Position numbers and translations under genes: made by a program. The notes under the pieces are model-generated. The model was not told the origin of the DNA. It made no database searches and saw only the letters and a program-made list of their open reading frames with translations. From Octopus vulgaris (lineage: Eukaryota), in NCBI GenBank assembly GCA_951406725.2, contig OX597815.1, forward strand, positions 41,664,001-41,728,000: a DNA stretch of 64,000 bases, given 5' to 3'. Below, piece after piece: positions 43,092 to 46,162 of this stretch (position 1 is its first letter; every line of letters starts with the position of its first letter).

Positions 43092-43481
43092 ATTTACATT
43101 CGATGAATATTTGTCCTCATCTTGTTTGTTGTTAACATGTTTCGGCTGATATACCCTCCAGCCTTCTTCAGGTGTCTTGGGGAAATTTCGAACCTGGGTT
43201 TTCATTCCTAAGGTATTTTTTGATATTATTATTAAGATCATTGCTTGGAATCGAACTCGGAATCTTGGGGTTAAGAGTGCAGGCTACAAGCCCCAAGATT
43301 CCGAGTTCGATTCCAAGCAGTGACCTGAACAACAACAACAACAATAATAATAACATCGAAAAATACCATAGGAATGAGAACCTAGGTTTGAAATTTCTCC
43401 AAGACACCTGAAGAAGGCTGGAGGGTATATCAGCCGAAAAGTGTTAACAACAAACAAGATAAGAACAAATATCTGTTGAAT
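43092..43481. mobile_element. Head-to-head inverted pair of a tRNA-headed element with Penelope-type hammerhead core (~390-bp palindrome)
   Basis: Arms 43092-43270 and 43291-43481 are reverse complements. Each has a B-box-like gagttcgattcc and gacac-CTGAAGA-a-ggctg..cagcc-GAAA (+ at 43403-43445; - at ~43133-43176). The right arm resumes at 43899-43953 after a SINE insertion. Confidence 0.75.
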
Positions 43482-43898: not shown

Positions 43899-44023
43899 AT
43901 GTAAATAATATAAATAATGTACATAATTCCTCATCTCTTAAATCTAGAACTGTTTAAAAAAGTTAAGTAAAAAGGGCATGCAATTTTGATTTGATAAAAA
44001 GAAAGAAAAAGAAAAAAACTTAC

Positions 44024-44184
44024 TTGTAGAGCTTTTTCTGGGTCATGCTTTGGTCCAAGAACAAACACTTTACATCCTTTTCTCACTGTACCACTAAATA
44101 TACGTGCAAAGGCAACAAATACATGCTCGGATTGAGGTTCTACAGTTCCATTTAAATCAGTGTCATTATTAACAGGATCACCAG
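44024..44184 (-). CDS. EFL1: EFL1 exon (...HVFVAFARIFSGTVRKGCKVFVLGPKHDPEKALQ), 161 nt
   Basis: gttttag|CT...CAA|gtaagt. FARIFSG and VLGPK motifs. Confidence 0.93.
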
Positions 44185-44269
44185 CTAAAACAAAAAAAAA
44201 AATTACTAAATAAAATACAGAAATGACATAAAAATATGGACATTACAACAATCTGATGCAAGCATGGCG

Positions 44270-44536
44270 AGAACTTTGCTTTCCAACTACCTGATCCTGG
44301 GTTTGGTCCAACAGTTGTCGGAGCACTGCATCCTTCAAAACTTCCATGCTTCCTGAGATTCGCCAACACTACACTTGATTTTCTCCCCTCCATACACATA
44401 CAAGCATGTAACTGACTCATACATTGTTCGCTTTCCAGACATTTCTACATTACTGCATGTACTTTATATGCACTTTCTGACAAGTTGTGGTGCACCTGAG
44501 CACTGTATACAATAATTTCATTATTATTATTATTAT
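44270..44536 (+). mobile_element. 3' end of a LINE (CR1/L2-like) with (TTA)n tail
   Basis: ttgtggtgcacctgagcactgtatacaa stem-loop followed by taatttc(att)n. Confidence 0.55.
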
Positions 44537-44677
44537 AGTATGCCCAAGCTGATGAAAGTGACTTAGAAGTCAACGTCAACAACATTCTTGTATAAGAAAA
44601 ATAAATATTTTTTGTGATCAGTGAATTTACTTCACTGAAATTATATATGTTTGAAAGGTCTAGACAGGTATCTTCAA

Positions 44678-44755
44678 CCAGCTAGCAAGCCATGCTACTC
44701 CAGACTGATGACGAGCAAGACTCAGAAACATGTCTCTGGATGCAGGCTTAGCTGG
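44678..44755 (+). ncRNA. Type I hammerhead ribozyme motif
   Basis: tccaga-CTGATGA(44705-11)-cgag caaga ctca-GAAA(44725-28)-catgTC-tctgga. Stem I is extended by tgc/gca, agcc/ggct and ccagcta/tagctgg. Predicted cleavage after C44734. Confidence 0.8.
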
Positions 44756-46031
44756 ATGGGGGTGCTTGTCTCCCCCTTGAAACATAAGGGCACAGGTAAT
44801 GTATCAAGGCCGACGGTAAGCGTTGATGCTTCCTAGGGCTAAATAGCAGTGGTGTGATTCCCTTTATGGGACTGTCACGTTAAGTTGACAGTATACAACT
44901 GCTTTATCGTTCCACCACTGCTTATATCTCTCTGAGATGTTTAGAAATTTAAAAATAAATCCATACTCTACAAAAGTATAGAGCATTCTTGTATAAGAAA
45001 AATTCACTCTACAAAAGTTATAGAGTAACCCATCAGACGAATGTAAAATTTTCTTTATTATAACTGAATATAAAAACAAACAAACTGTATCTATGCATAT
45101 GTCTATGTGTCTTTCTGTTTGTAACCCACAAGTTTGACAACTAGGGTTGGTTATGTCCCCATAACATCCAAGTTCAGCAAAAGAGACAGAATAAGCACCA
45201 GGCTTTAAGAACTGGGATCAATTTATTAAACTAAAACCTTTCAAGGCAGTGCCTCAATATGGCTACTGACAAATGACTCACATAAGTAATAGATGATAGA
45301 GCCAGGTTTCAGGTTCAGTCCCACTACTTGGCACTTTGGGCAAGTGTCTTCTACTAAAGACCATAGACAAACAAAGCTTTGTGAATAGATATGGTAGATG
45401 TAAACTGGAAGAACTCCATCATGTGTGTGTGTGTGTATATATATGCATGTTATTGACTGTGTCTTTGCCTTAATATCACATGATAATTGCAAATGAGTTC
45501 CCTGCCATGTCCTTCGTTTCCAAACATTCATGAAAACTCATGTAATCACAGGGAAATGCTGATTTCAAACTTTTATGCCAGGCCAGCAATTTTAGGGGAG
45601 TGGGGAGGTCAATTACACCTCCCCCACCCCCTCTACTTATTTTATTGACCCCAAAAGGATGAAAAGCAAAGTCGACCACAACAGAATTTGAACTCAGAAT
45701 GTGAAGGCAGACGAAATACCACTAAGCATTTTGCCCAGTGTGCTAACGATCCTGCCAGCTTGCCACCATAATCACAGGGTAATATTATCTTACTAGGAAA
45801 CATGATGATGACAGGAAGAACATCTGGCTCACCAAATTCCATCCAACTCATGCAAGCATGTAGAAGATGTTAAAAATGATGACGACGATGTTTTTCTTTT
45901 ATTTCCAATGCTCACTTGTTTTAAATTGAACATAAAATTTTAACTGCAATGTGAAATTGACCCAATAAAGTACTTAATGGATTAAACTGAAGTTTCTTTA
46001 AAATAAAATAAATGCCATCAAACTGACTTAC

Positions 46032-46162
46032 GTAAATTTTCTTTGGATTTTTGCTTGTCTTCTGCATTCTCAGTATTTTCTGTGGCTTTTGCAGCTAACC
46101 TTTCTGCCCTCTTTTGTAAAGCAATTCTTCTTTTCTCTTGCATATCAGCTTCAGTCAAAGGC
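46032..46162 (-). CDS. EFL1: EFL1 exon (PLTEADMQEKRRIALQKRAERL...), domain II insertion, 131 nt
   Basis: tttacag|G...TTAC|gtaagt. RPLT..helical EFL1-specific insertion; open frame. Confidence 0.88.

What the first reader, a model, noticed from the sequence alone, without database searches (positions are those of the whole stretch)
44583..45003. ~400-bp hairpin-packed cassette between 20-bp direct repeats: candidate cephalopod retrozyme/circRNA unit
Seen in sequence: cattcttgtataagaaaaat occurs at 44583-44602 and 44984-45003, 401 bp apart, bracketing the hammerhead. The sequence downstream of the ribozyme is GC-richer and folds into successive stems: ggggg/ccccc, gtatcaa/ttgatgc, and a 9-bp gcagtggtg/caccactgc stem (44846-54 / 44913-21) enclosing tccc/ggga and ctgtca/tgacag hairpins. 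It has no credible ORF. Inference: this fits a non-LTR retrozyme, a non-autonomous 150-400-nt hammerhead retroelement that forms circular RNA. I do not know of such a family characterised in octopus.
Basis: partly seen in the sequence, partly recalled or inferred. Interest (0 to 1): 0.72.

Follow-up and report, generated by a model that had tools for sequence, protein, structure and literature searches.

The report
Hammerhead retrozyme with Penelope-type ends
This is one copy of an abundant 354-base non-coding jumping repeat that carries a conserved motif predicted to cut its own RNA; its ends show it was likely pasted in by a Penelope-type retrotransposon enzyme, possibly from an RNA circle, and the 20-base repeats around it belong to an older repeat it landed in.

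Summary
The insertion is 44606-44952: one nearly full monomer of a 354-nt unit with a type I hammerhead (predicted cut after 44734). The genome holds over 1,000 exact hits of two subfamily markers, with head-to-tail dimers and a trimer. Across subfamilies, 7 of 12 hammerhead pairs change on both sides and helix III stays palindromic, so the ribozyme looks selected. Copy ends are Penelope-like: 43 of 50 end at one of two fixed points, 21 of 50 carry a 5' inverted copy, and target duplications are 11-15 bp. No linked Penelope ORF was found. The 20-bp repeat is not the target duplication: it is internal to another repeat family and locally duplicated; the likely duplication is a 10-mer 354 bp apart. 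Self-cleavage and circular RNA are untested. Verdict: a new member of the animal non-LTR retrozymes. The scan already noted sister families elsewhere in this genome. Side finding: a zinc-knuckle-ORF element sits directly in front of this hammerhead in 17 of 30 copies.

The parts
44606..44952 (+). Inserted retrozyme monomer (347 of 354 nt), circularly permuted: the ribozyme sits in the middle of the genomic copy
   Evidence: All close genome matches cover query 77-423 of 44530-45060; natural trimer at G000:C1:169.83 Mb has periods 355 and 354
44705..44734 (+). Type I hammerhead core: CUGAUGA, Y.A mismatch at base of a 3-bp helix II, GAAA, short helix III, GUC; predicted cleavage after 44734
   Evidence: Sequence; 262 exact genome hits of the core pattern; covariation
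44728..44733 (+). Palindromic helix III (ACAUGU), too short to close in one molecule; predicted to pair between two ribozymes
   Evidence: ACATGT 22 and ACTAGT 14 of 38; 98 of the 100 listed hits palindromic where 2 of 4 allowed words are; cofold forms the intermolecular helix
44646..44790 (+). Long irregular extension of helix I that encloses the ribozyme, with a 3-nt UAC bulge at 44696-44698
   Evidence: MFE and centroid folds; also in circular fold of natural monomers
44846..44921 (+).
44906..44952 (+). About 50-nt tail between the short and the long 3' end of family copies
   Evidence: 21 of 50 copies end short, 22 of 50 long; 15 of 21 inverted pairs have one arm of each kind
44597..44606 (+). 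Likely target-site duplication, left copy (AAAAATAAAT)
   Evidence: Only two copies in 44000-46000, 354 apart, abutting the element; family duplications abut the 3' end and are 11-15 nt. Inferred; AT-rich
44951..44960 (+). Likely target-site duplication, right copy (2 bases shared with the element end)
44547..44606 (+). Left part of the older host repeat, holding the first 20-mer (44583-44602)
   Evidence: Matches uninterrupted host-repeat copies
44951..45082 (+). Right part of the host repeat, with a local duplication of about 42-47 bp that makes the second 20-mer (44984-45003)
   Evidence: (D12)
44672..44692 (+). Site at which another element inserts in other family copies (empty here)
44024..44184 (-). 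Exon of the host gene, EFL1/EFTUD1-like; the element lies antisense in the intron 44185-46031
   Evidence: Best PDB match human EFTUD1, E 1.3e-7; Pfam EF-Tu D2 below cutoff; borders read from splice motifs
46032..46162 (-). Probable preceding exon of the same gene
   Evidence: Open frame with splice motifs; no Pfam hit; assignment inferred

Best explanation
The stretch 44606-44952 is a single copy of a 354-nt non-coding, hammerhead-bearing repeat family (an animal non-LTR retrozyme) that is likely copied in trans by a Penelope-like element's enzyme, probably from a circular RNA. Shown: unit, arrays, conserved ribozyme structure, two fixed 3' ends, 5' truncation and inversion, 11-15-bp target duplications, no own ORF. 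Inferred: read-through transcripts of arrays cut themselves at successive hammerheads (as pairs in this subfamily, because helix III only closes between two ribozymes), the 354-nt piece is ligated to a circle, and the Penelope-type enzyme starts copying about 172 or 227 nt downstream of the cut site and runs round through it, which gives permuted monomers, 1.x-mers and short arrays. This copy is a lone monomer, antisense in an intron, and would be a passive product, not a source.
For: 617 + 407 exact hits of two mutually exclusive subfamily patterns, control 0. Trimer with period 354/355 and dimers; two exact cores 350 apart at C2:72552119/72552469. 44 hammerheads: 94% of cells paired, 7 of 12 pairs with two-sided change, 64 such cells against 21.5 shuffled and at most 5 in slid controls. 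Helix III palindromic in three or four different words. Circular fold z -4.2 and -8.6. 43 of 50 pattern-picked copies end at two points, 21 of 50 have an abutting inverted copy, 15 of these asymmetric by the tail, as described for Penelope-like elements (10.1101/2021.04.23.441226, passages). 23 of 50 run through the cut site, 8 of 50 run on into a preceding unit, only 2 of 50 begin at the cut site: the template was not a linear cut-to-cut monomer. Target duplications of 10+ nt in 10 of 49 loci against 0.10 in mismatched controls. An intact, very young Penelope-like family with the same two-end pattern exists in the genome.
Against: No cleavage assay and no RNA data on circles. Rfam finds no hammerhead. 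The core is imperfect: 3-bp helix II on a C.A or U.A pair (A in 38 of 38); 8 of 9 predicted Xenopus retrozyme dimers did not cleave in vitro (10.64898/2026.07.22.740005). Covarying cells reflect a handful of subfamily events, not 64. An uncut linear multimer as template explains the ends as well as a circle. Units within arrays are not clearly more alike than between loci (92-99% against 95-97%). No sequence link to any autonomous partner (best E 0.3 outside poly-T). Long arrays were not seen; most copies are monomers or shorter.
Confidence: 0.75

Rival explanations
1. Same family, but copied from uncut or partly cut linear transcripts of tandem master loci, like a SINE riding a Penelope enzyme; the hammerhead trims transcripts or is inherited baggage, and no circle is needed.
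For: End patterns do not separate circle from linear multimer; no excess identity inside arrays; weak core; minimal Penelope hammerheads cleave poorly in vitro (PMC4209133).
Against: Compensatory changes in all three helices and a kept palindrome point to selection on the ribozyme; the unit folds well as a closed circle; equivalent coral, mussel and axolotl repeats form circles (PMC7229834).
Confidence: 0.17
2. The unit is the pseudo-LTR of an autonomous Penelope-like element whose ORF-bearing copies were missed.
For: All insertion hallmarks are those of Penelope-like elements; Xenopus retrozymes are homologous to pseudo-LTRs; Penelope-type coding fragments lie near two loci (L040, L020).
Against: Where copies extend upstream they continue into the previous unit, not into an ORF; no shared upstream flank among 52 loci except segmental duplicates; both nearby fragments are separated by unrelated sequence (0.4 kb downstream, 1.1 kb upstream), and the young family's own 3' UTR is unrelated. 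Only 1.5-kb flanks of about 80 of >1,000 hits were read.
Confidence: 0.06
3. One reading: a 381-bp cassette inserted with a 20-bp target duplication.
For: The exact 20-bp repeat is real and not chance.
Against: The 31 bp between the element's end and the second 20-mer continue the host repeat; the 20-mer is internal to that repeat in its other copies; family duplications abut the 3' end and are 11-15 nt.
Confidence: 0.02

Closest known systems
Animal non-LTR retrozymes (Cervera and de la Pena 2020, PMC7229834: coral 220-245 nt, mussel, axolotl 330/350 nt)
   Same: Non-coding 150-450-nt unit, one type I hammerhead per unit, head-to-tail copies, GC under 50%, target duplication longer than 4 bp, self-paired circular fold; weak palindromic helix III as in axolotl Amex1 and a mismatch at the base of helix II as in Amex2.
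   Different: Mostly dispersed monomers and truncated copies, arrays of at most 3 seen; fixed double 3' ends and 5' inversions, which I did not see described in the sections read; cleavage and circles not shown; no cephalopod mention in that text.
Retrozymes as non-autonomous Penelope-like sequences (Li, Clavereau, Pollet 2026, 10.64898/2026.07.22.740005)
   Same: Same proposed dependence on Penelope-like elements; monomers dispersed, few multimers.
   Different: Their evidence is co-occurrence and homology to pseudo-LTRs in Xenopus; here there is no homology to a partner but direct insertion footprints. No mollusc among the groups they list; their supplements were not visible.
Penelope-like elements, pseudo-LTR with minimal hammerhead (PMC4209133; Craig et al. 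10.1101/2021.04.23.441226; Hydra clade)
   Same: 5' truncation, partial tandems, inverted 5' copy, a tail on one arm only, TA-rich targets (22 of 49), palindromic helix III, extra base after A9.
   Different: No RT/GIY-YIG ORF; tail about 50-55 nt rather than 30-40; helix I of 6 bp plus a long extension and helix II of only 3 bp, where minimal hammerheads have a long helix II and short helix I.

Membership tests
Animal non-LTR retrozyme | Type I hammerhead in each unit | tested here: met
   Core and three helices with covariation; not recognised by Rfam models
Animal non-LTR retrozyme | 150-450-bp unit in head-to-tail repeats | tested here: met
   354/355-nt trimer and dimers; the window copy itself is a monomer
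Animal non-LTR retrozyme | Two consecutive units with complete hammerheads (Li et al. criterion for active) | tested here: met
   Met by the family (C2:72552119 and 72552469), not by the window copy
Animal non-LTR retrozyme | No protein-coding frame; GC below 50% | tested here: met
   (41-43% GC)
Animal non-LTR retrozyme | No LTR, primer-binding site or polypurine tract | not tested
   No LTR-internal-LTR layout seen in the loci; PBS and PPT were not searched
Animal non-LTR retrozyme | Target duplication longer than 4 bp | tested here: met
   11-15 nt in 10 of 49 loci, control 0.10; 10 nt inferred for the window copy
Animal non-LTR retrozyme | Highly self-paired circular monomer | tested here: met
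   Predicted only: 65-70% paired, z -4.2 and -8.6
Animal non-LTR retrozyme | Loop 1-loop 2 tertiary contact of canonical type I hammerheads | tested here: inconclusive
   UAC bulge in helix I and A-rich loop 2 are conserved; likeness to the canonical contact is recalled, not checked against a source
Animal non-LTR retrozyme | Self-cleavage in vitro | not testable with these tools
   needs transcription assay
Animal non-LTR retrozyme | Accumulates as circular RNA in vivo | not testable with these tools
   only contigs were on offer, which cannot show ends, strand or circles
Autonomous Penelope-like element (pseudo-LTR) | RT plus GIY-YIG ORF contiguous with the repeat | tested here: not met
   None in 1.5-kb flanks of 52 loci and 30 loci; two nearby fragments are separated from the unit
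Autonomous Penelope-like element (pseudo-LTR) | 5' truncation, partial tandem, inverted 5' copy, one-sided tail | tested here: met

The most novel reading that the evidence does not exclude
A three-tier parasite chain: a Penelope enzyme copies a 354-nt ribozyme circle from two fixed start points into both ends of a break, and a third, ORF1-only element has evolved to insert about 30 nt in front of this hammerhead so that the ribozyme cuts out its RNA ends or carries it along in enlarged circles. That would be a retrotransposon that targets a ribozyme parasite to borrow its catalysis.
Probability: 0.2. Interest if true: 0.78.

Novelty: new member of a known kind. Interest (0 to 1): 0.43.

Why it matters
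The class is known, and its mobilisation by Penelope-like enzymes has been proposed from co-occurrence and homology. This family adds footprint evidence (two fixed starts, one-sided tail, copies that run through the cut site) and a set of natural ribozyme variants, monomer-competent and dimer-dependent, that make cleavage and circle formation easy to test. I found no cephalopod retrozyme in print in four searches of the held library (listings, plus word searches in PMC7229834 and PMC13282606), but subscription papers, Repbase and supplements were out of reach. The element that targets the ribozyme is the more surprising lead.

Tried and rejected
Rfam: no hit at gathering, three chance hits at E 4-9. 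Expression: no RNA holder listed; four runs guessed to be RNA hold family pieces as contigs, but X1 has no cover of the host-gene exons, so RNA status is unproven and nothing is concluded. Empty orthologous site: joints 44605-44964 in X15, X16, X17 have only 20-base sides and come at depths that fit other host-repeat copies; not usable. A 20-nt loose-end motif had 0 genome hits. Partner search: the young Hydra-like family shares no sequence with the unit; only this one family was compared. Single-template test on four arrays inconclusive. The CTGATGA at 44549 looked like a second hammerhead but aligns with a non-core part of the host repeat. Lunse et al. 2017 was not held. One literature search for a Tx1-type element aimed at a ribozyme gave three unrelated listings. 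No earlier scan note by sequence or near this place. Rows left out: one search used 50 of 60 pattern-picked loci (eight same-place or already-seen loci including the trimer, two segmental duplicates among the ten; L128 was dropped although independent; L122 and L123 are one interrupted insertion counted twice); alignment A1 used 44 of 46 distinct motifs (one unrelated element, one with a duplicated helix III) and my regex admits only near-intact cores, so core conservation there is partly by construction.

Full report
Observation. A type I hammerhead core lies at 44705-44734 with helix I formed by 44699-44704 and 44735-44740; Rfam does not recognise it.

Boundaries. A search of the own genome (2.8 Gb, 227 contigs) with 44530-45060 gave 3455 candidates; the 40 scored cover only 44606-44952. 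The flanks belong to a second repeat family: a search with 44961-45090 gave 1263 candidates, and 19 copies aligned show the 20-mer as an internal segment followed directly by the sequence that in the window comes after the element. The window's host copy has a local duplication of about 42-47 bp, which makes the second 20-mer. The element sits in the first duplicate, between two copies of AAAAATAAAT that are 354 bp apart. Family duplications fit this: 10 of 49 loci have 11-15 nt abutting the 3' end, against 0.10 in 300 mismatched controls. Whether the local duplication arose before or with the insertion is not known. The element is antisense in an intron of an EFL1-like gene.

Family. Two exclusive patterns give 617 and 407 exact hits (hits, not loci), and the window-type core 262. 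A natural trimer has cut-to-cut periods of 355 and 354 nt; dimers exist too. At least four subfamilies, 76-94% identical to the window copy over the 3' part, keep the same unit layout. Contigs of two other organism labels hold pieces of the unit (X16, X17).

Ribozyme. In 44 distinct motifs 94% of cells pair; 7 of 12 pairs change on both sides (64 cells; shuffles 21.5; slid controls at most 5; the count of such pairs alone is reached by 37 of 500 shuffles). These are a few subfamily events. Helix III is palindromic as ACATGT, ACTAGT, ACATGCATGT and ACTGCAGT in a more distant relative. The window's six-base form cannot close within one molecule; a cofold of two copies forms it between strands. 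Weak palindromic helix III with dimer cleavage, and a mismatch at the base of helix II, are both described for axolotl retrozymes (PMC7229834, section 15 read). Against: helix II has only 3 bp over a Y.A pair, and most predicted Xenopus dimers did not cleave.

Insertion footprints. Numbering the unit from the cut site, 21 of 50 pattern-picked copies end at 160-182 and 22 at 215-240; 5' ends scatter. 21 have an abutting inverted copy and 15 of those have one short and one long arm. 22 of 49 have TA-rich 3' flanks. This is the layout described for Penelope-like elements (10.1101/2021.04.23.441226, passages). 23 of 50 run through the cut site and 8 into a preceding unit, so copying starts in mid-monomer and passes the cut site: the template was a circle or an uncut multimer. 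A circular template was proposed for such elements in PMC4209133 (parts 1-2 of 4 read). The array test did not separate the two.

Partner. No RT or endonuclease frame is contiguous with the unit in the flanks read; two nearby fragments are separate insertions. One of them led to a very young family (150 of 150 scored hits identical over 158 aa, open frames to 717 aa) with the DKT and CxCX5C motifs given for the Hydra clade (Pfam GIY-YIG only below cutoff for the fragment and no hit for the full protein). It shows the same two 3' ends and an extra base before GAAA in its hammerhead-like motif, but no sequence likeness to the unit. It is a candidate enzyme source only; the retrozyme copies read here are older than it.

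Side finding. In two loci an element of about 1.7 kb with one zinc-knuckle ORF and no RT interrupts the unit in the extension of helix I, with apparent duplications of about 12-19 bp read by eye (zf-CCHC below cutoff). Of the 30 best copies of its 3' end (171 candidates), 17 are followed directly by this family, typically 25-33 nt before the core, 3 by a more distant hammerhead relative and 2 by a short piece of the target; 8 are elsewhere. The query came from a copy in the target, which may favour that lineage. A Tx1-like or HAL1-like identity is recalled, not tested. An earlier scan note (e1-8823666) made a similar remark, seen after I had noticed the shared flank; it prompted the test.

Literature. 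Read: 10.64898/2026.07.22.740005 parts 1-3 of 5 (through discussion; supplements closed); PMC7229834 sections 13, 15, 17 and passages; PMC4209133 parts 1-2; passages of 10.1101/2021.04.23.441226, PMC7761336 and PMC13282606 (no 'ribozyme' or 'hammerhead' in its main text). Searches listed no cephalopod retrozyme paper.

Verdict. A real, selected, ribozyme-bearing mobile family; new member of the animal non-LTR retrozymes, with Penelope-type ends. The scan has noted 359-360-nt and 485-495-nt families of the same kind in this genome; none matched this sequence by word search. Interest 0.43.

Noticed in passing
L147:7880-9537, L148:5250-6950, L152-L181 (target equals window 44672-44692): A ~1.7-kb element with a single zinc-knuckle ORF inserts at one site just upstream of this family's hammerhead: 17 of 30 best 3'-end copies are followed by the unit, across several subfamilies, sometimes in tandem.
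   Followed up: partly
L083-L116 (e.g. L113:3601-5751): Very young, high-copy Hydra-clade-like Penelope family: 150 of 150 scored hits identical over 158 aa, 22114 candidates, intact 717-aa frames, two 3' ends about 70 nt apart into (TA)n, hammerhead-like motif with CCGA core.
   Followed up: partly
window 44547-45082; L062-L080: The host repeat is itself a fold-back repeat with a hammerhead-like motif and palindromic helix III in its fuller copies, ending in (TA)n: one ribozyme repeat nested in another.
   Followed up: partly
window 43098-43481: Inverted pair of another common repeat with a minimal-hammerhead-like motif at 43171 (-) and 43408 (+).
   Followed up: no
L170, L179, L180: A more distant hammerhead family with helix III ACTGCAGT and the same Y.A base of helix II, also hit by the targeting element.
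   Followed up: no
window 44791-44952: Summed contig depth in three large runs is several to more than ten times higher over the 3' half than over the ribozyme half, as expected from 5' truncation and diverged subfamilies.
   Followed up: partly
L009/L012 and L048/L049/L050: Copies carried inside recent segmental duplications (97-99% identical flanks).
   Followed up: no
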